From IMG/VR virus record IMGVR_UViG_3300017752_000002: a stretch of DNA of 64,000 bases; one strand, 5' to 3'. The translations under genes were made by a program, and so were the position numbers. Shown piece by piece: positions 37,539-62,758 of the stretch. The notes under the pieces are model-generated. The model worked only from the letters and a program-made list of their open reading frames with translations. It made no database searches and was not told where the DNA came from. How positions within the stretch are numbered: position 1 is the first letter of the stretch; each line of letters starts with the position of its first letter. The DNA is from a virus.

Positions 37539-38090
37539 ATGGCAGTCTCAAAAAAGAAGCCCCAACATTATGTTGATAATAAACAGTTTCTACAAGCACT
37601 AAAAGATTATAAAGATGCTTGTGCTAAGGCGAGCAAAAAGAAACAAGATAAACCTAGAATCCCAGAGTATATTGGTGAATGCTTATTGAAGATTGGTACA
37701 CACCTTTCTTACAAACCTAACTTCATCAACTATACCTATCGGGATGATATGATACTGGATGGTGTTGAAAACTGTATTCAATACATACATAACTTCGACC
37801 CTGATAAATCTGGTAATCCATTTTCATACTTTACGCAAATTATTTTCTATGCTTTTTTACGAAGAATTAAAAAAGAAAAGAAACAAACTTATGTGAAGCA
37901 GAAACTAATTGCTGAGATGGATGTTGATGCGTTCATGGAAGCAGGTGAAGATAGCGAAGGTACTAACCAATATATTGAGTATATGAAAAAGAACCAAGTC
38001 CTTGACCCTTACTTTGAAGCCAAAGAGAAAAAGAAGAAAGAAAAAAAGTCCACACCCATCTCTGATGCGTTGGACGATGTAAATGAGTAA
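37539..38090 (+). CDS. gp55: Late-transcription sigma factor gp55
   Basis: HYVDNKQF, YIGECLLKI, NFINYTYRDDMI, NPFSYFTQIIFYAFLRRI. Confidence 0.96.
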   Translation: MAVSKKKPQHYVDNKQFLQALKDYKDACAKASKKKQDKPRIPEYIGECLLKIGTHLSYKPNFINYTYRDDMILDGVENCIQYIHNFDPDKSGNPFSYFTQIIFYAFLRRIKKEKKQTYVKQKLIAEMDVDAFMEAGEDSEGTNQYIEYMKKNQVLDPYFEAKEKKKKEKKSTPISDALDDVNE

Positions 38091-46198: not shown

Positions 46199-46456
46199 AT
46201 GGGAAAACATATAAAAACATCAATGGACGAAAAGGTAGTGGATTATCTTGCTATTGAATTATGGCGAAAAGATCCAAACAATAAAGTCCTCCATCAGTTG
46301 ATGGGTATGCAGAATGAGGAAGGAAACCATATTCGTAAGACTATCGATGCTTATGATAAAACAGGTGAGTTTCCAACCCACTATAATACCGATGGAACAT
46401 GGAAATATTCGTCTGGACAGATAAGTTTTGACGCATTTTTATCACAAGGAAAGTAA
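46199..46456 (+). CDS. Hypothetical protein
   Basis: AAGGAG RBS, 85 aa. Confidence 0.65.
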   Translation: MGKHIKTSMDEKVVDYLAIELWRKDPNNKVLHQLMGMQNEEGNHIRKTIDAYDKTGEFPTHYNTDGTWKYSSGQISFDAFLSQGK

Positions 46457-48410: not shown

Positions 48411-48704
48411 ATGAAAAATAAAAATCCTAATATTGATTATAAATTTGATGAAGATAAACTTATTGAAGACTTCAAAGAATATATTGATAAAACTTACATG
48501 GGGCACTACAGTAAAAACTCATTTCAAGCAAGTGAATTTATTATTGATTGTGGTCATGGTATGGGATTTTTTATGGGTAATGTATTGAAGTATGCCCAAA
48601 GGTATGGCAAGAAAGATGGTTATAATCGTGCCGATATTTTAAAAATACTTCACTATGCATTGATGGCTTTACATCAACATGATAAAATTAACAAGGAGAA
48701 ATAA
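48411..48704 (+). CDS. Conserved T4-like hypothetical protein (DUF3310-like)
   Basis: YIDKTYMGHYS, GFFMGNVLKYAQRYGKKDG, DILKILHYA motifs. Confidence 0.75.
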   Translation: MKNKNPNIDYKFDEDKLIEDFKEYIDKTYMGHYSKNSFQASEFIIDCGHGMGFFMGNVLKYAQRYGKKDGYNRADILKILHYALMALHQHDKINKEK

Positions 48705-48708
48705 TATT

Positions 48709-49374
48709 ATGAAAATTTCGAAAGAAACTTTGAGTGTCCTTAAGAACTTTGCCACTATTAATGGCAATATTCTTATTAAAGCTGGTAATCGTTTATCGAC
48801 TATATCAGCACAAAAAAATGTTATGGCTAGTACTACTGTCCAAGAAAACTTTGATGGTGAGTTTGGTATCTATGACTTAAATGAGTTTTTGGGTGTGTAT
48901 TCTTTATTTGATGCAGATCCTGAACTTGCCTTTGATGAAAAGTTTGTCACTGTAGCAAATGGTAAATCTAAAGTAAAATATTTTGCTGCCGATCCATCAG
49001 TTCTAGCATCGCCAACTAAAGATGCTCTTCCTGTTGATGCAGATATTGAATTCGACTTATCAAAAACTATGTATGATATGATTATGAAAACATCTTCAGT
49101 ATTGAGATCTGGTGATGTATCATTCATTGGTGATGGTTCGAATGTTAGTGTAGTTGTAGCTGATAAAAAGAATGCTACTTCTAACTCTTGGGATGCTACT
49201 TTGGGCACAACTGATAAAGTGTTTAAAGTAAATTTCAGGATTGATAATTTCAAAATGCTAGATGGGGATTATGTAGTTTCTATTTCTAAGAAAAGAATCT
49301 CTAAGTTTGCTTCTAAGATGAATGACTTGACTTACTTCATCGCAGTTGAAGCTGACTCTACTTTTGACTTTTAA
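48709..49374 (+). CDS. gp45: Sliding clamp gp45
   Basis: MKISKETLSVLKNFATIN, FGIYDLNEFL, YFIAVE. Confidence 0.95.
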   Translation: MKISKETLSVLKNFATINGNILIKAGNRLSTISAQKNVMASTTVQENFDGEFGIYDLNEFLGVYSLFDADPELAFDEKFVTVANGKSKVKYFAADPSVLASPTKDALPVDADIEFDLSKTMYDMIMKTSSVLRSGDVSFIGDGSNVSVVVADKKNATSNSWDATLGTTDKVFKVNFRIDNFKMLDGDYVVSISKKRISKFASKMNDLTYFIAVEADSTFDF

Positions 49375-49395: not shown

Positions 49396-50334
49396 ATGGA
49401 TGACCAATTTATTTGGGTCGAGAAATACAGACCTAAGACTATTGAGGAGTGTGTCCTTCCTGACAGTTTAAGGGATACATTCAAAGAGTTTGTTGCTAGT
49501 GGGCAACTGCCGAACTTCCTGTTCTGTGGTACTGCTGGTGTCGGTAAAACTACTGTCGCCAAAGCACTATGCAACGAAGTCGGTGCTGAGTATCTGTTCA
49601 TTAATGGTTCCGAAGAATCTGGCATTGATGTGATACGAACAAAAATCAAAAACTTTGCTTCGTCGGTTTCCCTGACTGACTCAAAGAAAATCGTTATTCT
49701 TGATGAAGCTGATTATTTGAATCCGAACAGTACTCAGCCAGCACTGAGAGCATTTATCGAAGAGTTCTCTGGGAACTGCCGATTTATATTTACCTGTAAT
49801 TTTAAGAATAGGATTATTGAGCCACTTCACTCTAGATGTGCTGTGGTTGAGTTTAGGACTGATGCTAAGGATAAACCAGCAGTTGCTACAGCTTTCTATA
49901 AAAGAGTGGAGCATATTCTTAATACTGAGGGTGTGGACTTTGAGCAAAAAGCAGTTGTAGAAATTATACAAAAACATTATCCTGACTTCCGAAGGGTGCT
50001 GAACGAACTTCAAAGATATTCAGTATCTGGTAAGATAGATAGTGGCATTATGATTAATGTCAGTGAAGAGTCCTGGAATAATCTCTTTACACTTCTAAAG
50101 GATAAGAACTTCAAAGAGGTTCGTAAATGGGTCACTAAAAATAGTGATATTGAAACAACCCAATTATTTTCTGATATATTTAATAATGCTAATAACAAAC
50201 TAGAATCTGCTTCAGTTCCACAAATGGTTCTGATTCTCGCAGATTATCAGTATAAAGCAGCATTTGTCGCTGACCATGAACTTAATAAAATGGCAGCACT
50301 TACAGAGATAATGGCTTCCTGTAAGTTTAAATAA
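49396..50334 (+). CDS. gp44: Clamp loader large subunit gp44
   Basis: WVEKYRP, GTAGVGKTT, ILDEAD, PLHSRC. Confidence 0.96.
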   Translation: MDDQFIWVEKYRPKTIEECVLPDSLRDTFKEFVASGQLPNFLFCGTAGVGKTTVAKALCNEVGAEYLFINGSEESGIDVIRTKIKNFASSVSLTDSKKIVILDEADYLNPNSTQPALRAFIEEFSGNCRFIFTCNFKNRIIEPLHSRCAVVEFRTDAKDKPAVATAFYKRVEHILNTEGVDFEQKAVVEIIQKHYPDFRRVLNELQRYSVSGKIDSGIMINVSEESWNNLFTLLKDKNFKEVRKWVTKNSDIETTQLFSDIFNNANNKLESASVPQMVLILADYQYKAAFVADHELNKMAALTEIMASCKFK

Positions 50335-50717
50335 TGGCAAACCCTTTCCTTTATATTAACAACATAACTAACGACAAGAAGGATCTATTCCAGGATAATC
50401 CTCTTGCCGATAAGGATTATGTACCCTTTATTATTAATAGAGGTTTGAGTTATTTCCCTGACACAATAATGCAGTCCAACATGATGAACCAATATCATGA
50501 TATCCCGAAGTCTTGGCAATACTATTTTTTACTAAATACTATTACAAAAGGCAAAAGGTTCTCGAAGTGGCATAAAAATGAGAAGCAAACCGAGTCTTTG
50601 AAACTGGTTATGGAATATTATGGATATTCTCCAGAAAAGGCTCGTCAGGTGATGGATATATTAACAACTGACCAGATGAGCATTATTGAACAAAAACTAA
50701 ATAAAGGTGGTAAATAG
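50334..50717 (+). CDS. gp62: Clamp loader small subunit gp62
   Basis: YVPFIINRGLSYF, KGKRFSKW, VMEYYGYS. Confidence 0.92.
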   Translation: MANPFLYINNITNDKKDLFQDNPLADKDYVPFIINRGLSYFPDTIMQSNMMNQYHDIPKSWQYYFLLNTITKGKRFSKWHKNEKQTESLKLVMEYYGYSPEKARQVMDILTTDQMSIIEQKLNKGGK

Positions 50718-53344: not shown

Positions 53345-55828
53345 ATGAAGTTTTATACAAATGTTCATCCCCATGGTAATCAGCTTCTAGTCAGATATAT
53401 TTCTGGCACGAAGCGAAAAGCCGAGAAGATACCTTTCAAACCCAGTGTATGGGTCACAAAAGGTAAAGGCGAAACACCATACAAAACTCTTAAAGGGCAT
53501 CCTGCTTATAAAATCCAACAAGGATCTATAAAGGATGCTAAAGACTTTGTACACCGATACAATGATGTTATGGAAGTACATGGTCAAACTCAGTGGCATT
53601 ACCAATATATGCATGATGAGTTTAAGGATGATATTGAATGGGATAAAGAACTTATTAAGATTTGGTCAATAGATATTGAGACTGAAACTGAAGAAGGATT
53701 CCCTAATATTGAACGAGCCAACGAGAAACTTCTACTAATTACTTTACAAGATAATCATTCAAAAGAGATTATTACTTTCGGCACTAAAGAATATACAGGT
53801 GACGAAAAGCAACATAATAACTGGCGATATGTATATTGTCGTGATGAAAAGATTTTATTTCACAAGTTCCTAGATTACTGGATTGAAAATTATCCTGATG
53901 TAATTACAGGTTGGAACTCTCAGTTTTTTGACCTCGCATATTTATGGCGAAGAATGTGTCATGTAATTGGCGAAGACCATGCTCGTAGATTGTCTCCTTG
54001 GAAAATTGTACATGAACGAGAGATATTCGTAAAAGGTAATAAAGAGTTCGCCATAGCAATCGCAGGTATTGCTCAACTTGATTATCTTGACCTCTATAAA
54101 AAATATACTTACACAGCACAAGAATCTTATCGTCTAGATAATATTGCCTTCGTTGAACTTGGTCAAAAGAAACTTGACCATAGTGAGTACGCAACATTCT
54201 CAGAGTTCTATAGAAATGATTGGAATAAATTTGTTGATTATAATGTTATTGATACAGTATTAGTTGACAGGCTAGAAGATAAAATGAAGCTGATTGAACT
54301 TCAGCTTACTATGGCATATAATGCTAAGATTAATTATGATGATGTATTTTCTCAGGTTCGTATGTGGGATATGATTGTTCACAATTATCTGATGAAAGTA
54401 AATGTGGTAATACCACCGAAATCTAATGAAGATAAAAAGACTAAGTTTGAAGGAGCATTCGTAAAAGAGCCATTGATTGGTTTACATAAATGGGTTGCTT
54501 CATTTGACTTGAACTCGCTGTATCCCCATTTAATTATGCAATATAATATATCTCCCGAAACTCTACAACCTGAGTCTGTAGAAAAAGGAGTTGAGCATTA
54601 TCTTAAAAACCCTGCCATAGATTCGGAGTTTGCTGTTGCTGCCAATGGCTCTCAATATAGAAAAGATTTCAGAGGTGTATTCCCTAGTATTATGGAAGAC
54701 TTCTATAATCAAAGGAAGATCGCTAAGAAAGAGATGCTTCAAGCACAGCAATTATATGAGGATGAGAAAGATACTCGTCAGCTAAAAGTTATATCAAGTA
54801 AGAATAATTATCAGATGGGTTTGAAGATTGCTCTTAACTCAGCTTATGGTGCACTTGGTAATCAATACTTCAGATACTTTAATTTAAAAATGGCTGAAGC
54901 TATTACTACTTCTGGTCAATTATCTATTCGTTGGATACACGATAGAATGAATGAATATCTCAACAAGATAATCGGTACAGAAAACGAAGATTATATTATC
55001 GCTGTTGATACAGATTCTATATATGTGACATTCGAAAAACTTGTAGATAAAGTTATGGGAGATAAACAATCTGACATAAATAAAACCATCAAGTTCCTAG
55101 ACACTATATGTAATGATAAATTTATGCCATATATAAATGAACAATATTCTGAACTGGCTAATAGGCAAAATGCCTTTGCTAACAAGATGGTTATGGAAAG
55201 AGAAGTTCTAGCTGATAAAGGTTTATGGACTGCGAAAAAAAGGTATGTTCTTTCAGTGTATAATTCTGAAGGTGTGTCCTATAAAAAACCTAAGATGAAA
55301 ATTATGGGACTAGAGATGATTAAATCTTCTACTCCCTATGCTGTTCGTGAACTTCTAAAGGGTGTGATACCAGTTATCCTACATGGTGATAATAATGAAC
55401 TCTTCAAATATATTGAAGAGACTAGAAACTATTTCAACTCTTTACCTATTGAAGAGATTTCCTTCCCTAGATCTGTAAATGGTCTCAGCAACTATAAAGA
55501 TTCTATGAGCATATATAGGAAAGCAACTCCTATTCATGTCAGAGGTGCTTTACTTTATAATCATTATTTGAAAGAAAAGAACATAGACCTAAGATACAAT
55601 GATATTAAAGAGGGTGAGAAAATTAAATTCGTTTACTTGAAAAAACCTAATGTCATCAGGGAGAATGTTATATCCTTCCTAGATGTTGTTCCTAAAGAGT
55701 TCGGCATACATGATTATGCTGATTATGACTTGATGTTTGAAAAGGTATTCTTAGATCCAGTCGATATCATGATACAATCACTTGGATGGAAAGTAAAGCA
55801 AACAGCCAGTCTTGAGGATTTCTTTTAA
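53345..55828 (+). CDS. gp43: Family B DNA polymerase gp43
   Basis: DIET exonuclease, FDLNSLYP, KIALNSAYG, DTDS; C-terminal SLEDFF. Confidence 0.98.
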   Translation: MKFYTNVHPHGNQLLVRYISGTKRKAEKIPFKPSVWVTKGKGETPYKTLKGHPAYKIQQGSIKDAKDFVHRYNDVMEVHGQTQWHYQYMHDEFKDDIEWDKELIKIWSIDIETETEEGFPNIERANEKLLLITLQDNHSKEIITFGTKEYTGDEKQHNNWRYVYCRDEKILFHKFLDYWIENYPDVITGWNSQFFDLAYLWRRMCHVIGEDHARRLSPWKIVHEREIFVKGNKEFAIAIAGIAQLDYLDLYKKYTYTAQESYRLDNIAFVELGQKKLDHSEYATFSEFYRNDWNKFVDYNVIDTVLVDRLEDKMKLIELQLTMAYNAKINYDDVFSQVRMWDMIVHNYLMKVNVVIPPKSNEDKKTKFEGAFVKEPLIGLHKWVASFDLNSLYPHLIMQYNISPETLQPESVEKGVEHYLKNPAIDSEFAVAANGSQYRKDFRGVFPSIMEDFYNQRKIAKKEMLQAQQLYEDEKDTRQLKVISSKNNYQMGLKIALNSAYGALGNQYFRYFNLKMAEAITTSGQLSIRWIHDRMNEYLNKIIGTENEDYIIAVDTDSIYVTFEKLVDKVMGDKQSDINKTIKFLDTICNDKFMPYINEQYSELANRQNAFANKMVMEREVLADKGLWTAKKRYVLSVYNSEGVSYKKPKMKIMGLEMIKSSTPYAVRELLKGVIPVILHGDNNELFKYIEETRNYFNSLPIEEISFPRSVNGLSNYKDSMSIYRKATPIHVRGALLYNHYLKEKNIDLRYNDIKEGEKIKFVYLKKPNVIRENVISFLDVVPKEFGIHDYADYDLMFEKVFLDPVDIMIQSLGWKVKQTASLEDFF

Positions 55829-55848
55829 ATTCAAAGACTTAGCAGAGG

Positions 55849-55877
55849 TTTACTTTTAAGTTTTTTAAGAGTAGAAT
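55849..55877 (+). promoter_or_regulatory. Sigma70-type promoter
   Basis: TTTACT-17-TAGAAT. Confidence 0.7.
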
Positions 55878-55884
55878 GATGATA

Positions 55885-56184
55885 ATGAATAAAGTAATAG
55901 CTATATTGATGATGCTTGGAGTCACTATGTGTTCTCCTCCAGCCTATACTGCACCTTTGACTAAGGTTGTAGCATATGGTCCAAACTGTACTACAGAGAC
56001 GACTCAGGTTGTCCAAAATGGTATTATAGTTAAGGAGATAACTACTAGAACATGTAAGGAAGAAACTAAGCAGGGAAAACAAAAGTTTGACCCAGATGCT
56101 AACGCAACTGATGCCCTATTATATGAGGGTGCTCAGTTATTAATGTATTCTGTATTCGTGAAGCTAATTACGGAAATGAACTAG
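55885..56184 (+). CDS. Hypothetical exported protein
   Basis: Signal-peptide-like MNKVIAILMMLGVTMC; ATG 55885 fits the promoter. Confidence 0.6.
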   Translation: MNKVIAILMMLGVTMCSPPAYTAPLTKVVAYGPNCTTETTQVVQNGIIVKEITTRTCKEETKQGKQKFDPDANATDALLYEGAQLLMYSVFVKLITEMN

Positions 56185-56198
56185 GAGATAACTATATT

Positions 56199-56318
56199 AT
56201 GAAATATATTATTGGAGTTGCTATCGGGATTGGGATTACTTACTTCTATCCTGAAATGGCAAATAACATAATTGAAATCGTGAAGGAGGTTTATAATGTC
56301 ATCATTTCAAAATTTTAA
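56199..56318 (+). CDS. Small membrane protein (39 aa)
   Basis: AGGAG RBS; MKYIIGVAIGIGITYFYPEMANNIIEIVKEVYNVIISKF. Confidence 0.55.
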   Translation: MKYIIGVAIGIGITYFYPEMANNIIEIVKEVYNVIISKF

Positions 56319-56859
56319 AATCTTACTAATCTCAGGTATGCTGGTATTTTTGGCAGCATGTTCTACTACTAAGATTGCCACTGAAGCAAATCGTGATGGT
56401 GTTCTTAATAAAGTGCCGACTTGGTACTTAGACGCAGAAGTAGAAAAAGGATTAATTAGAAACAGGGATGCCGAAGAATTTATTTATGGTGTCGGCTCTT
56501 CAGTTTCTTACGATCTTCAGTTTGCTCTTGATAAAGCTACTACTATCGCAAAGTCGGATTTAGCTGACCAAGTGAATGGCAGGATTACTCAAAATGAGAG
56601 TATATATAAAGAAGAAGGATCTGGTGAAGGTGAAGACTTAATGGTTGAAAGATCTACAAGTCAAACTAACAACATAATCACTCCTACTTCTCTTCCTGGA
56701 TATGAAGAGTGGAACAAAGATGTATTCATTACAGCTGATGGGTTGTATCGAGTATATGTCGGATTGAAATGGTCTGAAACAAATAATAGGTTGGCACCTA
56801 ACATTAAGATGCAAAAGTTAGAGCCAGTAGAATCTAAACCTATTGACGCATCTATTTAA
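56296..56859 (+). CDS. Lipoprotein (LPP20-like)
   Basis: Lipobox LAAC; VPTWY...YGVGSS...ALDKA..AK..LA pattern. Confidence 0.75.
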   Translation: MSSFQNFKILLISGMLVFLAACSTTKIATEANRDGVLNKVPTWYLDAEVEKGLIRNRDAEEFIYGVGSSVSYDLQFALDKATTIAKSDLADQVNGRITQNESIYKEEGSGEGEDLMVERSTSQTNNIITPTSLPGYEEWNKDVFITADGLYRVYVGLKWSETNNRLAPNIKMQKLEPVESKPIDASI

Positions 56860-56876
56860 CTAAAGGAGAAAATTAT

Positions 56877-57920
56877 ATGGTTGGGTATTTAAACGACCTT
56901 ATAGATAATCTCGATAACGAGTACGCAGGACTTGCGGAAAATGCTCTAGACTCTGATGTCGGTTTTGTTGACACAGGGTCTTACGCATTTAATGCTTTAT
57001 TGAGTGGTTCTATTTATGGTGGACTTCCAGGAAACAAGGTGACTGCCCTTGCTGGTGAGAGTTCTACAGGTAAAACTTTTTTCGCTCTAGGAGTTGCTAA
57101 AAACTTCCTAGACATGGATAAAGAAGCAGGTGTTATATATTTTGAAACAGAGGGTGCACTTACTAAGCAAATCCTTGAAGATAGAGATATTGACACAAAC
57201 AGATTTGTTATTGTACCAGTGACAACTATTCAAGAGTTTCGTACTCAAGCTGTGCGTATTCTTGAAAATCATAAAACTGTACCTGAACAGGCAAGGAAAC
57301 CTATCCTATTTTGTTTAGACTCTTTGGGTATGCTCTCTACAAATAAAGAAGTAGCAGATGTAGCAGAGGGTAAGGATACTCGTGATATGACGAGAGCACA
57401 ATTAGTTAGAGGTGCTTTCAGAGTATTGAGTCTAAAACTCGCACAGCTTGATGTACCAATGATTGTGACCAATCATACTTTCGATGTTATAGGATCTTAT
57501 GTACCTATGAAAGACATGGGTGGTGGAGGTGGCTTAAAATATGCTGCATCTACAATCGTGTTCTTGGGTAAAAGTAAAGATCGTGATGGTACAGAAATCG
57601 TGGGCAATATTATTAAAGCAACTACTCAGAAGTCTAGATTTACTAAGGAGCAAATGAAAGTTGAATGTAAACTTAATTTTGAAACAGGTTTATCTAGATA
57701 TCATGGACTTACCGACCTTGCTGTTGAAGCAGGTATCTGGGAAAGTGCTGGTGGTCGTATTACTGTAGATGGTAAAAAAGTATTTGGTAAAGTTATTATG
57801 AAAGAGCCAGAAAAGTTTTTTACTGAAGAAGTATTAAAACAGATTGACGAACACTGTAAATCTAAATTTATGTATGGGACTGAAAGTGAGCAAGAAACCG
57901 AAGATAATACAGGGGAATAA
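56877..57920 (+). CDS. uvsX: RecA-like recombinase UvsX
   Basis: GESSTGKT, LDSLGML, MGGGGGLKYAAS. Confidence 0.96.
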   Translation: MVGYLNDLIDNLDNEYAGLAENALDSDVGFVDTGSYAFNALLSGSIYGGLPGNKVTALAGESSTGKTFFALGVAKNFLDMDKEAGVIYFETEGALTKQILEDRDIDTNRFVIVPVTTIQEFRTQAVRILENHKTVPEQARKPILFCLDSLGMLSTNKEVADVAEGKDTRDMTRAQLVRGAFRVLSLKLAQLDVPMIVTNHTFDVIGSYVPMKDMGGGGGLKYAASTIVFLGKSKDRDGTEIVGNIIKATTQKSRFTKEQMKVECKLNFETGLSRYHGLTDLAVEAGIWESAGGRITVDGKKVFGKVIMKEPEKFFTEEVLKQIDEHCKSKFMYGTESEQETEDNTGE

Positions 57921-58365
57921 TCCTAAAGAGTACCAACCAATCCACTCTGCTAATGATTATGTATCTGAAGAAGATTACTTAAAAGCAAAAGAGGAATGGG
58001 AAAAGGAAAACTATCATACTGACAAGTTGAGAGATACAGGTCAGCAACAACTTCCACATACAGTATTAGAAGAAACCAACGAACAAGGTTTCATGAAACT
58101 TAAAGTCAATCAAGGCATCCTAGAAGATAAAATAGTTTCCTTTGGTAAAGTTTCTTTTCAACCCACTGAAGATGGTACTATTAAACTTGACTATAATTAT
58201 GAGATAGATGGTCCAGATAAATATAGACCAGTACCAAAGGTTGAAGTTGAGAAAATACTTGGCGACTTCCTAATGGCTATGATAAAAGAACAAATGGCTG
58301 AAAAAGCAGTTCTTTTTAGAGGTGGCGAGGATGAAATGAAGGAAGCATTAGGAGAAGATGCCTAG
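57886..58365 (+). CDS. Hypothetical protein, possibly gp40-like
   Basis: Position between uvsX and gp41; start uncertain (GTG 57886). Confidence 0.5.
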   Translation: MSKKPKIIQGNNPKEYQPIHSANDYVSEEDYLKAKEEWEKENYHTDKLRDTGQQQLPHTVLEETNEQGFMKLKVNQGILEDKIVSFGKVSFQPTEDGTIKLDYNYEIDGPDKYRPVPKVEVEKILGDFLMAMIKEQMAEKAVLFRGGEDEMKEALGEDA

Positions 58366-58366
58366 T

Positions 58367-58395
58367 TTGACATTTAACTTTTTTACAGGTAGAAT
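58367..58395 (+). promoter_or_regulatory. Sigma70-type promoter (gp41)
   Basis: TTGACA-17-TAGAAT, 6 nt before ATG. Confidence 0.8.
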
Positions 58396-58401
58396 CTAAC
58401 T

Positions 58402-59793
58402 ATGCGTATTGAAGACACTATATTAAATAATCTTATTCATAATGATGAGTACTGCCGAAAAGTAGTACCATTTATTAAAGCTGAATATTTCCAAGATAGA
58501 ACTGAAAAGATAATATTTGAAGAGTTTGATAAACTGTTCTTACAGTACAACAACATTCCTAATCCTGATATGATTGCTTCTGAAGTTTTTGAACGAAAAG
58601 ATTTATTTGAAAACGAGCATGCTCTTATTCAGGAAAAAATACAGCAGATGTCTGAGCCAAAATCTATTAATGATAATTGGCTATATGATAAAACTGAGGA
58701 ATGGTGTAAAGAACGAGCAGTACATAATACTATTATGGACTCTATCAAAATTATCGATGGTCGTGATAAAGTACATACCAAAGATGCGATTCCTAAAATG
58801 ATGCAGGATGCTTTGGGTGTTTGCTTTGATGACTCTGTCGGTCATGATTATCTTGAAGATGCTGATGATAGATTTCAATTTTATCATAAGATTGAAGAAA
58901 AAATTAAATTTGATATTGATTTATTGAATACTATTACTCGTGGTGGTTTGAGTAAAAAAACTCTTAACATCGCCATGGCTGGTACTGGTGTTGGTAAATC
59001 TTTGTTTATGTGTCATCATGCATCTAGTGTATTGAACGAGGGTATGAATGTTCTTTATGTCACTATGGAGATGGCTGAAGAAAAGATATCTGAAAGGATT
59101 GACGCAAACTTATTGAACTTGGGTATGGATGAAATTAAAGTTGTTGACCATGATATATTCAGTAAGAGAATTAATAAAGTAAAAGAAAACAGTAAAGGTA
59201 AACTGATTGTAAAAGAATATCCTACAGGTGCTGCTCATGCAGGTCACTTCAGAGCATTACTTGAAGAACTTAAAATGAAAAAAGGTTTCAAAGCAGATAT
59301 TATATTTATCGATTATCTAAATATCTGTGCTTCGCAAAGACTAAGGATGGGTGCCAATGTAAATACTTATTCTTATATCAAATCTATTGCTGAAGAACTA
59401 AGAGGTCTGGCAGTTGAATATAACTGTCCTATCGTATCAGCTACTCAAACTACAAGAGGTGGATATAATAATACTGATGTTGGTCTTGAAGATACTTCGG
59501 AGTCTTTCGGTTTACCAGCTACTGCCGATCTAATGTTTGCGATTATTGCTAGTGAAGAACTGGATAATATGGGACAATGGATGATTAAACAACTTAAAAA
59601 CAGATATTCAGATCCTAACTATTATAAGAGATTTGTAGTTGGGGTTGATAAAAACAAGATGAGATTGTACAATGTTGAAGAATCTGCCCAAAGTAATATA
59701 ATGGATAGTGGGCAGGAAGAAAAAGATATCGGAGCAGTATTTGATAAAACCGATGCAGGTGAACGATTAAGTATGGAAGGATTTAAGGTATGA
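58402..59793 (+). CDS. gp41: Replicative helicase gp41
   Basis: AGTGVGKS, IDYLNI, SATQTTR, SESFGLPATAD, KQLKNRY. Confidence 0.97.
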   Translation: MRIEDTILNNLIHNDEYCRKVVPFIKAEYFQDRTEKIIFEEFDKLFLQYNNIPNPDMIASEVFERKDLFENEHALIQEKIQQMSEPKSINDNWLYDKTEEWCKERAVHNTIMDSIKIIDGRDKVHTKDAIPKMMQDALGVCFDDSVGHDYLEDADDRFQFYHKIEEKIKFDIDLLNTITRGGLSKKTLNIAMAGTGVGKSLFMCHHASSVLNEGMNVLYVTMEMAEEKISERIDANLLNLGMDEIKVVDHDIFSKRINKVKENSKGKLIVKEYPTGAAHAGHFRALLEELKMKKGFKADIIFIDYLNICASQRLRMGANVNTYSYIKSIAEELRGLAVEYNCPIVSATQTTRGGYNNTDVGLEDTSESFGLPATADLMFAIIASEELDNMGQWMIKQLKNRYSDPNYYKRFVVGVDKNKMRLYNVEESAQSNIMDSGQEEKDIGAVFDKTDAGERLSMEGFKV

Positions 59794-61091
59794 CAAAAAC
59801 AATAACAGCACCTAAGAAATTTGACTGTGAAAATATATTGGGTAGATTTGGTGACGAAAGTCATTATGAGTTGTTAGTTGATTATGATTGTGATTTTTAT
59901 GCTCCTACACCTATGGGTGAGGAAAACTCTGAAGAAAATATTATATTCAAGTTTAGAAAGAACTTCTTTTCTCAAGAACAACAAGACGAAGCATATAAAG
60001 GACTTCGTGAAGCAGCAGGTGCCACTGAAAATCGTGGACTCGCAGCAGGTATAGAAAAAACCAAATCGCTTGGCTCTAGAGATTGGGTCACTAATTACCA
60101 TGAAGAATTATTGGCATATTTTCAAAACCCATCTACAACACTAGATGGTTCTGACCCAGTAGAAAATATTAAAGCTAAGTGGAAAGGTAGAGAGAATATT
60201 GCTGATGACAGTAGAGGTAATGTATGGTTGGCTCTTAAAGTTGCTGAGGAAGCATTTGAGTTTGAAGCATGGGTTGAAGAGATAAGGTTATTACCCAAAG
60301 ATGAAATGGTAGCTGAAGCGAATAGAGTTAGAGATAAACTTACATCTACAACTTCTTATGCTAATCAGGTTTTCTCAGGTATCGCAGGTTATTTTGACAG
60401 ATATCCTCGTATTCCTTTTGGTCGTCCTACAACTTACACTCGTGATAATTATGATAAGTTTGAGATGGCACTTCCTTTCTTACAACAACTTAGTAAAGGA
60501 TTTGAAGATCTATTACCTGTCAGATATGGTAAGCAGAATGAAGCATGTGGTAAATTAGATTCTAAGTTTATTATTCCAGGAACTGTATTTACTACTGCTA
60601 CTGTAAACAAAACTTTTAGAACAGCTTACCATAGAGATGCTGGTGATTTGAATGAAGGTTTTTCTAATCTTACTGTTGTATCTAATAATGGTAAATACTC
60701 AGGTGGTCATTTAATACTTCCTGAATATAAGGTTGCTGTAAACATTCGTCCTGGAGATTTATTACTAATTAATAATCATGACGGAATACATGGTAATACA
60801 CCTATGGTTATGGAATCTGATGATGCTGAAAGAATATCATTCGTGTGTTATTTTAGGGAAAAAATGTTAGAACTTGGATCTTGGGATTATGAAAGGGCAA
60901 GGGAAGATTATGTCACTGCTCGTAGAACTAATAAAGAACACCCTTTACAAAGAAAATTATGGAATGGTATCAGTCCTGGAATGTGGGATGAAAGTGAGTG
61001 GTACGATTTCTTAGAAAATAAATTAGGTATAGATGTATTGACTAAGTATCATCCCGACAGTCAGTCATCAAGTTTGGAGGAATTTTTCTAA
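59790..61091 (+). CDS. TET/JBP-family Fe(II)/2-oxoglutarate dioxygenase
   Basis: FTTATVNKTFRTAYHRDAGDL (HxD), GGHLILPEY, GDLLL..H..IHGNT (distal H), ERISFVCYFRE (2OG Arg). Confidence 0.88.
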   Translation: MTKTITAPKKFDCENILGRFGDESHYELLVDYDCDFYAPTPMGEENSEENIIFKFRKNFFSQEQQDEAYKGLREAAGATENRGLAAGIEKTKSLGSRDWVTNYHEELLAYFQNPSTTLDGSDPVENIKAKWKGRENIADDSRGNVWLALKVAEEAFEFEAWVEEIRLLPKDEMVAEANRVRDKLTSTTSYANQVFSGIAGYFDRYPRIPFGRPTTYTRDNYDKFEMALPFLQQLSKGFEDLLPVRYGKQNEACGKLDSKFIIPGTVFTTATVNKTFRTAYHRDAGDLNEGFSNLTVVSNNGKYSGGHLILPEYKVAVNIRPGDLLLINNHDGIHGNTPMVMESDDAERISFVCYFREKMLELGSWDYERAREDYVTARRTNKEHPLQRKLWNGISPGMWDESEWYDFLENKLGIDVLTKYHPDSQSSSLEEFF

Positions 61092-61915
61092 TGGACATTT
61101 TAAAAGATTATCAAATCTGTATCCCATCATATAAGCGACACGAAACTGTGATGAATAAAACCATCGAGGTATTAAAGTCATATAATATTGACCCAGCTAG
61201 GATTAAAGTATTCGTGAATGATGAGGAGCCAGGAGAGTATGACAATTATGTAGATACTTTATCTAAAACTGAATACACAAAAAATATTGAAGTCGTAAAA
61301 GGTGTACCAACTATTGGTAAGCAAAGAAACTTCATAGAGAAGTATTATCCTGAAGGAACTTATGTCATGTCTTTTGATGATGATATTGAAGAAGTACAAG
61401 TTAAGGATGGCGAGCAAAACTTACTGCGTGTTGAAGACTTTGAAAAAGAAGTTATACTTAGAGGTTTCCAAGCATGTGAAGATAACGATGCTAAGACTTT
61501 CGGTATATATGCAGCATCAAATGCGTACTTTATGAAGCATCGTACATATACGAAACTTTGTTATATTATCGCTAGTATGTATGGATTTATAGCTGACCAC
61601 GATCCTGAATTAGATCGTCATACTAATCATGGTGAAGATTATGAGTATAGTATGCGTCAATATAGAAAACATGGTGTTGTCGTAAGACTTGATGATATTA
61701 CTGTAAAATCTAATTACTATAAAGAGGTTGGTGGCTTACAAACATTTAGAACTGCTGAAAATATTAAGTCAAGTATTGAGTGGATTGCTGAGAACTTTGA
61801 CGATTTATGTACGATGTATATTCGTAAGACTACTGGGCATGCTGAATTAAAATTGCGTGATACATCTGGTGGTAAATATGATAAAAATTTAAGCACATTA
61901 GAAGGTTTCTTTTGA
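61091..61915 (+). CDS. TET-associated GT-A glycosyltransferase (TAGT/GREB1-like)
   Basis: ICIPSYKR, KQRNFI, MSFDDDI, GEDYE, GGLQ motifs; start overlaps the TET stop. Confidence 0.82.
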   Translation: MDILKDYQICIPSYKRHETVMNKTIEVLKSYNIDPARIKVFVNDEEPGEYDNYVDTLSKTEYTKNIEVVKGVPTIGKQRNFIEKYYPEGTYVMSFDDDIEEVQVKDGEQNLLRVEDFEKEVILRGFQACEDNDAKTFGIYAASNAYFMKHRTYTKLCYIIASMYGFIADHDPELDRHTNHGEDYEYSMRQYRKHGVVVRLDDITVKSNYYKEVGGLQTFRTAENIKSSIEWIAENFDDLCTMYIRKTTGHAELKLRDTSGGKYDKNLSTLEGFF

Positions 61916-62043
61916 ACGAATTAAAACCATTTATCTTAGGTATAGCAATAGCAATGTTATTTGTTGGTCTTATAATATGGATAAGTCCATATGGTGGTCA
62001 GCATGAGCCATTAGATATATTAATTAGAATCTATCAACAATGA
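61912..62043 (+). CDS. Small membrane protein (TTG start, 43 aa)
   Basis: LNELKPFILGIAIAMLFVGLIIWISPYGGQHEPLDILIRIYQQ; overlaps both neighbours by 4 nt. Confidence 0.5.
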   Translation: MNELKPFILGIAIAMLFVGLIIWISPYGGQHEPLDILIRIYQQ

Positions 62044-62459
62044 GAACTGGTATAACTGCTTCAACTTTCGACCTGCTTCATGCTGGTCATGTACAAATGT
62101 TAAGGGATGCCAAATCTCAATGCGATTATTTAATAGCATGTTTACAGATAGATCCTAGTATAGATAGAAAAGATAAAAATGCTCCAATACAAACTGTCGT
62201 TGAAAGATACACACAATTAAAAGCAGTAAAATATGTTGATGAGATTATACCATATTCAAGCGAAAAAGATTTAGAAGATATCTTAGAATTATATGAGATT
62301 GATGTTAGAATACTAGGCGAGGAATATAGAGAAAAAGATTTTACTGGTAAGGATATATGTAAGAGAAGAGATATAGAATTATATTTTAATAAGAGGGAAC
62401 ATAGGTTTTCCTCCACAGATTTGAGAGAAAGGGTGAGTGAGCAATGGTCTGGAAAGTAG
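62040..62459 (+). CDS. Cytidylyltransferase (TagD/glycerol-3-phosphate CT-like)
   Basis: STFDLLHAGH (HxGH), ER...LKAVKYVDEI, FSSTDLR. Confidence 0.9.
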   Translation: MRTGITASTFDLLHAGHVQMLRDAKSQCDYLIACLQIDPSIDRKDKNAPIQTVVERYTQLKAVKYVDEIIPYSSEKDLEDILELYEIDVRILGEEYREKDFTGKDICKRRDIELYFNKREHRFSSTDLRERVSEQWSGK

Positions 62460-62758
62460 CAAAGAAAGACGAAAGATATACTGTATTAGATTATGAAGGA
62501 TTGAATGTTCTCGTACCTTCTCTCACAATTTTACAACCTGGATGTGAAACTAATGGTCATGTACACAGTGACCCACAACAGGAAGAAGTTTATGTATTTA
62601 CAACTGGCACTGGACTCATGGAAGTTGAAGATGAAACGATCTCTGTAAAAGCTGGAGACATCATCCCAGTGCCAGCCAATAAATTTCATAAAGTCTATAA
62701 TAATGATGTAGTGCCATTACACTTTGCTGCTGTATTCAATGGTGCTAGATATGAGTAA
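62444..62758 (+). CDS. Cupin-domain protein
   Basis: HVH....EEVY..TGTG...V..E...VKAGDII.VP...FH motif. Confidence 0.88.
   Translation: MVWKVAKKDERYTVLDYEGLNVLVPSLTILQPGCETNGHVHSDPQQEEVYVFTTGTGLMEVEDETISVKAGDIIPVPANKFHKVYNNDVVPLHFAAVFNGARYE

What the first reader, a model, noticed from the sequence alone, without database searches (positions are those of the whole stretch)
55802..61915. Polymerase, TET and glycosyltransferase share a C-terminal (S/T)LExFF clamp-binding-type tail
Seen: gp43 ends TASLEDFF (55802-55828), the TET ends SSSLEEFF (61065-61091), the glycosyltransferase ends LSTLEGFF (61889-61915); I saw no other protein in the window ending this way. Established: T4/RB69 gp43 docks on the gp45 clamp through a C-terminal S-L-acidic-hydrophobic peptide. 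Inference: both modification enzymes ride the sliding clamp, making modification processive and replication-coupled. This is independent evidence that their substrate is DNA rather than host surface glycan.
Basis: partly seen in the sequence, partly recalled or inferred. Interest (0 to 1): 0.8.

Follow-up and report, generated by a model that had tools for sequence, protein, structure and literature searches.

The report
Clamp-binding tails on phage DNA-modifying enzymes
In this marine T4-like phage, a TET-type DNA dioxygenase and its partner DNA glycosyltransferase end in the same short peptide the phage's DNA polymerase most likely uses to hold its sliding clamp, so base modification is probably tethered to newly copied DNA.

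Summary
gp43 ends TASLEDFF, the Tet_JBP dioxygenase SSSLEEFF and the TAGT glycosyltransferase LSTLEGFF. The motif [ST]L[DE]xFF occurs three times in the window's proteome, always at a C-terminus (0.06 expected).

- **Conservation:** 117-120 of 120 TET homologues and about 110 of 120 TAGT homologues keep the tail after a variable linker, with synonymous codon changes.
- **Co-variation:** The tail matches each phage's own polymerase tail (C48C1, DLP_6, Cr30, Melnitz, two metagenomic contigs).
- **Controls:** It is missing from TET/TAGT of seven phages and contigs that are not T4-like; the five complete genomes among them have no gp45. This includes TAGTs 63-66% identical to this one.
- **Other families:** A Dam methyltransferase family and a GNAT-like enzyme in T4-like phages carry it too.
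- **Complex prediction:** gp45 trimer plus the TET tail gave weak support (0.56; best control 0.01), with the tail placed at the interdomain loop and C-terminal strand of gp45.

Best explanation (about 0.8): a portable gp45-binding peptide tethers DNA-modification enzymes to the clamp. Binding itself is untested. T4 α-GT is already known to bind gp45, so this is a new variant of a known principle. The scan noted the same phenomenon on other DNA (e1-5324504, e1-5366788).

The parts
48709..49374 (+). gp45 sliding clamp (221 aa), the proposed docking partner. The true start is the ATG at 48709, not 48679.
   Evidence: phrog_223 at 5e-71 plus Pfam gp45-slide_C and DNA_PPF. Homologues align from residue 11 of the longer ORF, and AAGGAG lies 10 nt upstream of 48709. 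Full-length match to the T4 and RB69 gp45 structures 1CZD, 1B77 and 1B8H.
49396..50717 (+). gp44 (49396-50334) and gp62 (50334-50717), the clamp-loader subunits.
   Evidence: phrog_168 at 1e-121 with Gp44_lid; phrog_225 at 8e-42 with Phage_clamp_A.
53345..55828 (+). gp43 family-B DNA polymerase. Its C-terminal peptide TASLEDFF is encoded at 55802-55825, with the stop at 55826-55828.
   Evidence: T4 gp43 read from its own record ends ...KASLDFLFG. That C-terminus is the established gp45 ligand (PMC2988020).
58402..59793 (+). gp41 replicative helicase. Its stop overlaps the TET start by 4 nt, so the modification genes are coupled to replisome genes.
   Evidence: DnaB_C and phrog_19 at 1e-125; coordinates.
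59790..61091 (+). Long-form TET/JBP (5mYOX) dioxygenase, 433 aa. An unassigned N-terminal domain covers about residues 1-210 and the catalytic core about 212-422. A variable linker (423-427) leads to the tail SSSLEEFF, encoded at 61065-61088.
   Evidence: PF12851. H281-x-D283, distal His 330/334 and R348 are invariant in 60 homologues, as are L429, F432 and F433. AF2 model pLDDT 82.7 with the tail below 50. Foldseek matches CcTet, TET2 and NgTET1 DNA complexes at E about 1e-9. Tail conservation.
61091..61915 (+). TET-associated glycosyltransferase (TAGT), 274 aa. The fold ends at invariant D257. A variable linker with indels (258-268) leads to the tail LSTLEGFF, encoded at 61889-61912. Its start overlaps the TET stop by 1 nt.
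   Evidence: PF20691; tail conservation and linker variability. It is 66% identical to the tail-less P0154 up to residue 257.
62040..62758 (+). Cytidylyltransferase-like gene (62040-62459) and small cupin (62444-62758) directly downstream. They may supply an activated donor for the TAGT. Neither has a tail.
   Evidence: PF01467 at 3.5e-15; PF07883 at 8e-11 with a weak mannose-6-P isomerase match; tails listed.
37539..38090 (+). gp55 late sigma factor, a known class of gp45 client. It ends ...TPISDALDDVNE, which aligns position for position with T4 gp55 ...SPSLDFLYEAND but is a weaker form of the epitope.
   Evidence: phrog_234 at 9e-64; tails; epitope definition from PMC2988020.

Best explanation
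The C-terminal peptide [S/T]-L-[D/E]-x-F-F (plus at most one more residue) is this phage lineage's version of the gp45 sliding-clamp-binding epitope, which in T4 is ...SLDFLFG on gp43. It works as a portable module. A few flexible residues and the peptide are appended to the end of the folded enzyme. The peptide docks into the hydrophobic pocket on the C-face of a gp45 subunit, under the interdomain connecting loop. Clamps are loaded at primer termini by gp44/62 and remain on freshly replicated duplex. The dioxygenase and the glycosyltransferase are therefore concentrated on, and slide along, new phage DNA. There the TET hydroxylates the 5-methyl group of a pyrimidine (T or 5mC) and the TAGT glycosylates the product. 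A trimeric clamp could in principle carry polymerase, TET and TAGT together. Shown here: the shared motif, its conservation, its co-variation with the polymerase tail, its absence from phages that are not T4-like (the five complete genomes tested have no gp45-type clamp), its separate presence on unrelated enzyme families, and co-transcription with replisome genes. Inferred: physical binding, the pocket used, simultaneous occupancy, and any gain in speed, completeness or processivity.
For: (1) Three identical-type tails in the window, far beyond chance. [quoted passage not shown] They are freely interchangeable and follow a divergent linker of variable length (PMC2988020). T4 gp43 and gp55 read from sequence end SLDFLFG and SLDFLYEAND. 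(3) Same anatomy here: near-invariant L and FF after high-entropy linkers, with indels in the TAGT, and the tail is low-confidence in the AF2 model. (4) Conservation: 117/120 TET homologues by a strict pattern (the other three end ALD[EQ]FFG) and 109/120 TAGT. (5) Co-variation with each phage's own polymerase tail: C48C1 TLEDFFG / SLEEFFV; DLP_6 TLDSFFA / TLGDFFV / DLSSFFN; Cr30 DLSSLFD / DLSKLF; L016 SLEDFFG / SLDEFFA; L017 SLEEFFG matching its polymerase. (6) Controls: TET/TAGT of HTVC112P, P12024L, S-CBWM1, Rich, Altadena, L045 and L046 lack the tail. A gp45 profile finds 0 of 5 clamps in the five complete control genomes and 4 of 4 in the T4-like phages. (7) The tail follows replisome type, not enzyme phylogeny. 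The window's TAGT is 66% identical to tail-less P0154 from a ParB-type phage, but has no BLASTP similarity to the tailed DLP_6 TAGT. (8) Unrelated DNA enzymes also carry it: the C48C1 Dam methyltransferase, with 59/120 homologues tailed (288-305 aa) while tail-less ones stop at ...TNY (276-281 aa), and a GNAT-like protein in L017. (9) In a strict census of 2,625 six-frame ORFs in four genomes, every hit is a polymerase, TET, TAGT or Dam. (10) All tail codons vary synonymously and downstream contexts differ, so selection is on the peptide. (11) Complex prediction, gp45 trimer plus TET 392-433: score 0.56 against a best control of 0.01. The mark was reached by 58 of 80 solved complexes and 2 of 110 mismatched pairs, but at 0.60 or under by only 7 of those 80 and by both mismatches that passed, so the verdict is 'weak support'. 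Confident contacts are TET 425-430 and 432-433 with gp45 32, 35-39, 103-108, 177, 195-197 and 210-215. (12) Precedent: T4 alpha-GT co-purifies with gp45 (Sommer 2004, cited in and confirmed by PMC13216743).
Against: There is no binding measurement. The complex prediction is only 'weak support' and may reflect memory of the solved RB69 clamp-peptide complex 1B8H. Even the polymerase tail's role in this phage is inferred from T4 and RB69. In T4, alpha-GT, beta-GT and Dam have no such C-terminal peptide, and alpha-GT binding to gp45 was not the main determinant of glucosylation level (PMC13216743), so tethering may matter little for function. The Cr30 TET (…GATLF) and Melnitz TET (…NLNDFLGE) carry only degenerate versions. 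The S-CBWM1 TAGT ends …ELEDLLP although no gp45-type clamp was found. The TET comparison of T4-like against other phages is not phylogenetically independent, because the long-form TETs form one clade.
Confidence: 0.8

Rival explanations
1. The tails bind the host's beta sliding clamp (DnaN) and not the phage gp45, recruiting the enzymes and perhaps the polymerase to host clamps.
For: The tails resemble the bacterial beta-clamp motif QL[S/D]LF (from general knowledge). The resemblance is closest in Cr30: polymerase ADLSSLFD and TAGT SDLSKLF.
Against: Each phage with the tail encodes its own gp45 and clamp loader. The tail matches the phage polymerase, whose partner in T4 and RB69 is gp45 (PMC2988020). 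Hosts range from marine bacteria to Stenotrophomonas and Caulobacter, yet the tail follows the phage's polymerase. Phages without gp45, which would profit most from a host clamp, lack the tail.
Confidence: 0.06
2. The shared peptide binds a different common replisome partner, such as the gp32 single-strand-binding protein, the gp41 helicase or the clamp loader, or it mediates enzyme-to-polymerase contact.
For: The comparative data show only a shared partner that co-occurs with the T4-type replisome. They do not say which protein it is. In T4 solution studies the gp43 tail also uses a second site at the open gp45 subunit interface (PMC2988020).
Against: The only established ligand for this class of C-terminal peptide is gp45. 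The prediction places the tail in the canonical clamp pocket, with controls at 0.01.
Confidence: 0.08
3. The tail has no docking role. It could be a degradation or stability tag, a folding element, or a DNA-level constraint from downstream translation signals.
For: The TET stop overlaps the TAGT start, and the gp41 stop overlaps the TET start, so some local nucleotide constraint exists.
Against: Every tail codon changes synonymously, and downstream contexts range from overlapping genes to intergenic DNA. The same peptide sits on four unrelated folds and on the polymerase. It follows a variable linker and is low-confidence in the model, so it is not part of the fold. A degron shared only by DNA enzymes, and only where a gp45 replisome is present, would be an odd coincidence.
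Confidence: 0.04

Closest known systems
C-terminal gp45-binding epitope of T4/RB69 gp43, gp55 and gp33 (RB69 clamp-peptide structure 1B8H; review PMC2988020)
   Same: A short hydrophobic and acidic peptide at the extreme C-terminus, preceded by a divergent flexible linker. It is shared between the polymerase and other clamp clients in a phage that encodes gp45 and gp44/62. The predicted contact site is the clamp's C-face pocket.
   Different: The sequence is [ST]L[DE]xFF and not SLDFL[FY]. The clients are DNA base-modification enzymes (TET/5mYOX, TAGT, Dam, GNAT-like), not transcription factors. Binding is not demonstrated here.
T4 alpha-glucosyltransferase binding to gp45 (Sommer et al. 2004 BBRC; pull-down confirmed in PMC13216743)
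   Same: A phage DNA glycosyltransferase that acts after replication and physically associates with the sliding clamp.
   Different: T4 alpha-GT is a different family (PF11440) and has no polymerase-like C-terminal peptide; it ends ...FKEQFDIITK, so its binding determinant is something else. T4 beta-GT does not bind. In T4 the hydroxymethyl group is made before replication at the nucleotide level, whereas here a DNA dioxygenase also carries the tail.
DNMT1-PCNA (PIP-box) coupling of maintenance methylation to replication in eukaryotes (PMC9690074)
   Same: A DNA-modifying enzyme is recruited to newly replicated DNA by a short clamp-binding motif.
   Different: A different clamp, a different motif (an internal PIP box) and a different enzyme. 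It is analogous, not homologous.
ParB-dependent and ParB-independent phage thymine dioxygenases (5mYOX; PMC13229309)
   Same: The same enzyme superfamily in phages, often paired with glycosyltransferases. The short TETs in the control phages HTVC112P, Altadena, L045 and L046 sit next to ParB genes.
   Different: The window's enzyme is a long form (433 aa) with an extra N-terminal domain and a clamp-type tail. No ParB was found among the ORFs scanned between 34 and 64 kb. The paper does not mention clamp tails.

Membership tests
gp45-binding C-terminal epitope (T4 gp43/gp55/gp33 class) | Short hydrophobic plus acidic peptide at the extreme C-terminus | tested here: met
   SLEDFF, SLEEFF and TLEGFF at the exact C-termini. 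T4 gp43 ends SLDFLFG and gp55 SLDFLYEAND. Definition from PMC2988020.
gp45-binding C-terminal epitope (T4 gp43/gp55/gp33 class) | Epitope joined to the folded protein by a divergent linker of variable length | tested here: met
   TET residues 423-427 have entropy 1.0-2.8 bits, against 0-0.12 for L429, F432 and F433. TAGT residues 258-268 are variable with 40% gaps. The tail has pLDDT below 50.
gp45-binding C-terminal epitope (T4 gp43/gp55/gp33 class) | The same genome encodes gp45 and its loader, and the client tails resemble the genome's own polymerase tail | tested here: met
   gp45, gp44 and gp62 are in the window. The tail matches the polymerase tail in the window, C48C1, DLP_6, Cr30, L016 and L017. 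gp45 is present in 4 of 4 T4-like phages and 0 of 5 controls.
gp45-binding C-terminal epitope (T4 gp43/gp55/gp33 class) | Physical binding to gp45 | tested here: inconclusive
   Prediction only: score 0.56 against a best control of 0.01. The mark was reached by 58 of 80 solved complexes and 2 of 110 mismatched pairs, but at 0.60 or under by only 7 of those 80 and by both mismatches that passed, so the verdict is 'weak support'. A similar complex is solved (1B8H), so the pass may come from memory.
TET/JBP 5-methylpyrimidine dioxygenase (PF12851) | Pfam score above the gathering cut-off, an intact Fe(II)/2OG motif and a TET fold | tested here: met
   73.1 bits against 34.9. H281-x-D283, His 330/334 and R348 are invariant. 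Foldseek matches CcTet, TET2 and NgTET1 DNA complexes at E about 1e-9.
TET/JBP 5-methylpyrimidine dioxygenase (PF12851) | Substrate base (5mC or T) | not testable with these tools
   No DNA methyltransferase was found among the window ORFs scanned. The relative L017 couples the same TET to GATase, ADDT and a P-loop kinase, a thymidine hypermodification set (PMC13229309). This points to T, but it is an inference.
TET-associated glycosyltransferase (PF20691) | Pfam score above the gathering cut-off and adjacency to a TET/JBP gene | tested here: met
   45.6 bits against 27.5. The start codon overlaps the TET stop.
ParB-dependent 5mYOX subclass | A ParB-like activator gene next to the dioxygenase | tested here: not met
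   No ParB_N was found among the ORFs scanned between 34 and 64 kb. The TET N-terminal domain has no Pfam match even at E up to 10 and no fold match. ParB is adjacent in HTVC112P, Altadena, L045 and L046.
Bacterial beta-clamp-binding motif (QL[S/D]LF) | Match to the consensus and use of the host DnaN | not tested
   The resemblance is partial only: no Q, and FF in place of LF. The consensus is recalled from general knowledge.

The most novel reading that the evidence does not exclude
T4-like phages use a portable 'replisome address tag'. Any DNA-modifying enzyme they acquire (TET/5mYOX, TAGT, Dam, GNAT-like, and by earlier scan notes DpdA and GT-B enzymes) gains the polymerase's clamp-binding peptide. 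In these phages the replisome clamp gp45 takes over the DNA-tethering or activating role that a ParB-type partner plays for the short TET and TAGT enzymes of small phages. The tail would then be a sequence-only predictor of 'acts on replicating DNA' for unknown phage proteins, and clamp tethering would explain how post-replicative hypermodification keeps pace with a fast replisome.
Probability: 0.4. Interest if true: 0.8.

Novelty: new variant of a known kind. Interest (0 to 1): 0.68.

Why it matters
Post-replicative DNA hypermodification has to finish before host nucleases find unmodified phage DNA, and how the enzymes keep up with replication is largely unknown. A clamp-docking tail offers a simple mechanism that can be tested with peptides, recombinant gp45 and cultivable relatives (DLP_6, Cr30).

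It would be a prokaryotic-virus counterpart of DNMT1-PCNA coupling. None of the papers found by three full-text searches reports a sliding-clamp-binding tail on a TET-family dioxygenase.

It suggests that ParB partners in small phages and gp45 tails in T4-like phages are alternative ways of holding these enzymes on DNA.

In practice, the tail is a cheap annotation rule for telling DNA-acting glycosyltransferases, methyltransferases and acyltransferases apart from surface-glycan or metabolic enzymes in T4-like genomes. It also warns that C-terminal tags on these enzymes may remove a functional element.

Tried and rejected
- **Whole genome:** None is held for this window, so a genome-wide tail census and a search for a C5-methyltransferase were limited to the 64 kb plus 7 kb of downstream flank from L013.
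- **The search for related loci:** A scan of viral contigs with the single TET protein found nothing. I used the search for homologous proteins and the look-up of encoding contigs instead.
- **Looser tail pattern:** It also picked a roughly 233-aa protein in C48C1, DLP_6 and Cr30 ending ...DDFF...ENFFV and ...KDFFL. This is a T4 baseplate protein (PF12322) whose fold runs to the C-terminus and which lacks the [ST]L[DE] core, so I rejected it as a clamp client.
- **Fused ParB hypothesis:** I tested whether the TET's extra N-terminal domain is a fused ParB. There was no Pfam hit at E up to 10. The isolated-domain AF2 model is only pLDDT 69.9 and Foldseek against the PDB found nothing at E up to 0.001. 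The idea is unsupported, but the test is weak.
- **DNA-level constraint:** Rejected on synonymous codon variation and differing downstream contexts.
- **Literature:** Three full-text searches and targeted reading of the 5mYOX, GT and T4 papers found no mention of clamp tails on TET or TAGT. The library lacks most subscription journals, so this is not proof of absence.
- **Not tried:** Complex predictions for the TAGT tail, the Dam tail, or the host beta clamp as a specificity control (only one job was allowed).

Full report
**Observation.** The DNA polymerase (53345-55828) ends TASLEDFF, the dioxygenase (59790-61091) ends SSSLEEFF, and the glycosyltransferase (61091-61915) ends LSTLEGFF. Pfam and PHROGs confirm the gene calls:
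- family-B polymerase (phrog_262, 1033 bits);
- Tet_JBP (73.1 bits against a cut-off of 34.9);
- TAGT (45.6 bits against 27.5).

The same searches show a T4-type replication module: gp45 clamp, gp44/gp62 loader, RegA, UvsX and gp41. The gp45 gene really starts at 48709. Homologues align from residue 11 of the longer ORF, and a Shine-Dalgarno sequence precedes that ATG.

The window is an uncultivated marine T4-like phage. It has no near-identical record in the phage collection, but identical TET genes lie on TARA and JGI marine contigs.

**Chance.** In a 68-gene set of about 19,900 residues, [ST]L[DE]xFF occurs three times, each time at the extreme C-terminus, with 0.06 expected anywhere. Only these three of 179 six-frame ORFs end in FF. 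The compositional probability that two further proteins share the polymerase's ending is about 5e-9.

**Conservation.** Of the 120 best TET homologues (56-100% identity), 117 fit a strict tail pattern and the other three end ALD[EQ]FFG. Of 120 TAGT homologues, 109 fit and several more are near-variants.

Column entropies show the profile of a short linear motif:
- The TET fold ends at invariant H421-P422. Residues 423-427 are variable, and then L429, F432 and F433 are invariant.
- The TAGT fold ends at invariant D257. Residues 258-268 are variable with indels, and then come L and FF.

The AF2 model of the TET (pLDDT 82.7) has the last residues below 50. All tail codons vary synonymously and the downstream contexts differ, so selection acts on the peptide and not on the DNA.

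[quoted passage not shown] They are interchangeable and follow a divergent linker of variable length (PMC2988020). T4's own sequence gives gp43 ...KASLDFLFG and gp55 ...SPSLDFLYEAND.

In every T4-like phage examined, the modification enzymes' tails match that phage's own polymerase tail:

| Phage or contig | Polymerase | TET | Other enzyme |
|---|---|---|---|
| C48C1 | TLEDFFG | SLEEFFV | Dam methylase TLDAFFG |
| DLP_6 | TLDSFFA | TLGDFFV | TAGT DLSSFFN |
| Cr30 | DLSSLFD | GATLF (degenerate) | TAGT DLSKLF |
| Melnitz | TLEDFFG | NLNDFLGE | none found |
| L016 | SLEDFFG | SLDEFFA | none found |
| L017 | SLEDFFG | SLEEFFG | GNAT-like SLEEFLK |

**Negative controls.** The TET and TAGT of HTVC112P, P12024L, S-CBWM1, mycobacteriophage Rich and Arthrobacter phage Altadena have no such tail. 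A gp45 profile finds no clamp in those five genomes but finds one in all four T4-like genomes.

By the strict motif, 5 of 7 TETs in T4-type contexts carry the tail, against 0 of 7 elsewhere. That gives a one-sided Fisher p of about 0.01 by my own arithmetic, and the samples are not phylogenetically independent.

**Tail follows replisome, not enzyme phylogeny.** The rare tail-less members among close TAGT homologues (P0154 and P0164, 63-66% identical) lie in contigs that are not T4-like. Those contigs have a primase-helicase, a GpA- or Terminase_6-type terminase, a short 266-267-aa TET and an adjacent ParB_N gene. The window's TAGT aligns with P0154 at 66% identity up to D257 and diverges only in the tail. 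It has no detectable BLASTP similarity to the tailed TAGT of DLP_6.

The Dam family shows the same modularity. 59 of 120 homologues have the strict tail and are 288-305 aa long, while the tail-less ones stop at ...LLxTNY and are 276-281 aa long. In a strict census over 2,625 six-frame ORFs in the window, C48C1, DLP_6 and Cr30, every hit is a polymerase, TET, TAGT or Dam.

**Structure prediction.** A gp45 trimer (147-row alignment) with TET residues 392-433 scored 0.56, 0.52 and 0.57, against a best control of 0.01. The mark was reached by 58 of 80 solved complexes and 2 of 110 mismatched pairs, but at 0.60 or under by only 7 of those 80 and by both mismatches that passed. The verdict is therefore 'weak support', and the solved RB69 complex 1B8H could make this a memory effect.

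The confident contacts are TET 425-430 and 432-433, which is the tail itself. On gp45 they are residues 32, 35-39, 103-108, 177, 195-197 and 210-215, which include the interdomain connector and the C-terminal strand. This is consistent with the C-face hydrophobic patch described for clamp ligands.

**Mechanism.** The most likely reading (about 0.8) is that the tail docks the TET and the TAGT on gp45. This concentrates them on freshly replicated DNA and lets them scan it in one dimension. The genes are translationally coupled to gp41: there is a 4-nt overlap between gp41 and the TET, and a 1-nt overlap between the TET and the TAGT. The enzymes are therefore made together with the replisome.

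Binding, simultaneous occupancy of the trimer and any kinetic benefit are inferences. The T4 precedent cuts both ways. Alpha-GT does bind gp45 (Sommer 2004, confirmed in PMC13216743), but that binding was not the main determinant of glucosylation level. T4 alpha-GT, beta-GT and Dam also lack a polymerase-like tail.

**Substrate.** The TET model matches DNA-bound TET structures at E about 1e-9, which supports DNA as the substrate. No DNA methyltransferase was found among the window ORFs scanned. The relative L017 couples an orthologous TET to a GATase, an amino-acid:DNA transferase and a P-loop kinase, which form a thymidine hypermodification set. Published work finds that most phage 5mYOXs lack a C5-methyltransferase and oxidise T (PMC13229309). 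The enzyme may therefore make 5-hydroxymethyluracil, which the TAGT then glycosylates. A cytidylyltransferase and a cupin downstream may supply the donor. This part is inference.

**Novelty.** Clamp 'toolbelt' clients with C-terminal peptides are known, and so is a clamp-binding phage glucosyltransferase. New here:
- the polymerase-type tail on TET/5mYOX, TAGT, Dam and GNAT-like enzymes;
- its modular gain and loss according to replisome type;
- its apparent mutual exclusivity with ParB partners.

I found no paper describing this. The scan itself has noted the same phenomenon on other DNA (e1-5324504, e1-5366788, and e1-5358533, which is the same sequence under another record), and it has noted ParB-TAGT pairs in small phages (e1-308209, e1-4420243, e1-095587).

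Noticed in passing
window 59790-60420 (TET residues 1-210): The long-form TET has a conserved N-terminal domain of about 210 aa with many invariant residues (for example G71-L-R-E-A-A76, N81-R-G83, R97, W99). The short ParB-associated TETs of small phages lack it. It has no Pfam match and no PDB fold match. It is more confidently modelled in the full-length protein than alone, so it probably packs on the catalytic core.
   Followed up: partly
window 59770-59793; L016 8594-9991; L017 8599-9990: The gp41 helicase has its own conserved C-terminal ending (…SMEGFKV, …FSGFKF, …SFEGFKF), distinct from the clamp tail. It may be a docking peptide for another replisome partner such as the primase or helicase loader.
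   Followed up: no
L004 3995-4879 (phage C48C1, directly after gp43): A Dam-type N6-adenine DNA methyltransferase ends STLDAFFG. 59 of its 120 closest homologues carry the tail on a C-terminal extension of 12-20 residues, while the tail-less ones stop at …LLxTNY.
   Followed up: partly
L017 11347-14703 (metagenomic relative): Behind an orthologous tailed TET, the cassette is a GATase, a GNAT-like protein ending SLEEFLK, an amino-acid:DNA transferase and a P-loop kinase, where the window has a TAGT. This is a thymidine-hypermodification set, and it suggests that this TET clade oxidises T. The cassette after the TET varies between relatives (L016 differs again).
   Followed up: partly
window 62040-62758: A cytidylyltransferase-like gene and a small cupin (with a weak mannose-6-P isomerase match) follow the TAGT. 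They may supply an unusual activated donor. Neither has a tail.
   Followed up: partly
window 46199-46456: An 85-aa ORF with no family match ends …GQISFDAFLSQGK. This hydrophobic and acidic near-terminal segment could be a gp33-like clamp-binding co-activator or a DsbA-like protein.
   Followed up: no
L009 4819-5673 (Synechococcus phage S-CBWM1 gp9): This TAGT ends …HELEDLLP, which resembles the tail, although no gp45-type clamp or T4-type polymerase was detected in the genome. This is unexplained.
   Followed up: partly
window 48679-48708: The longest ORF for gp45 starts 30 nt too early. The real start is the ATG at 48709, behind AAGGAG.
   Followed up: yes
L017 7015-7266: A thioredoxin between gp43 and UvsX ends …EEQLLDFLKG, which resembles the T4-type LDFL motif. 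This may be chance.
   Followed up: no
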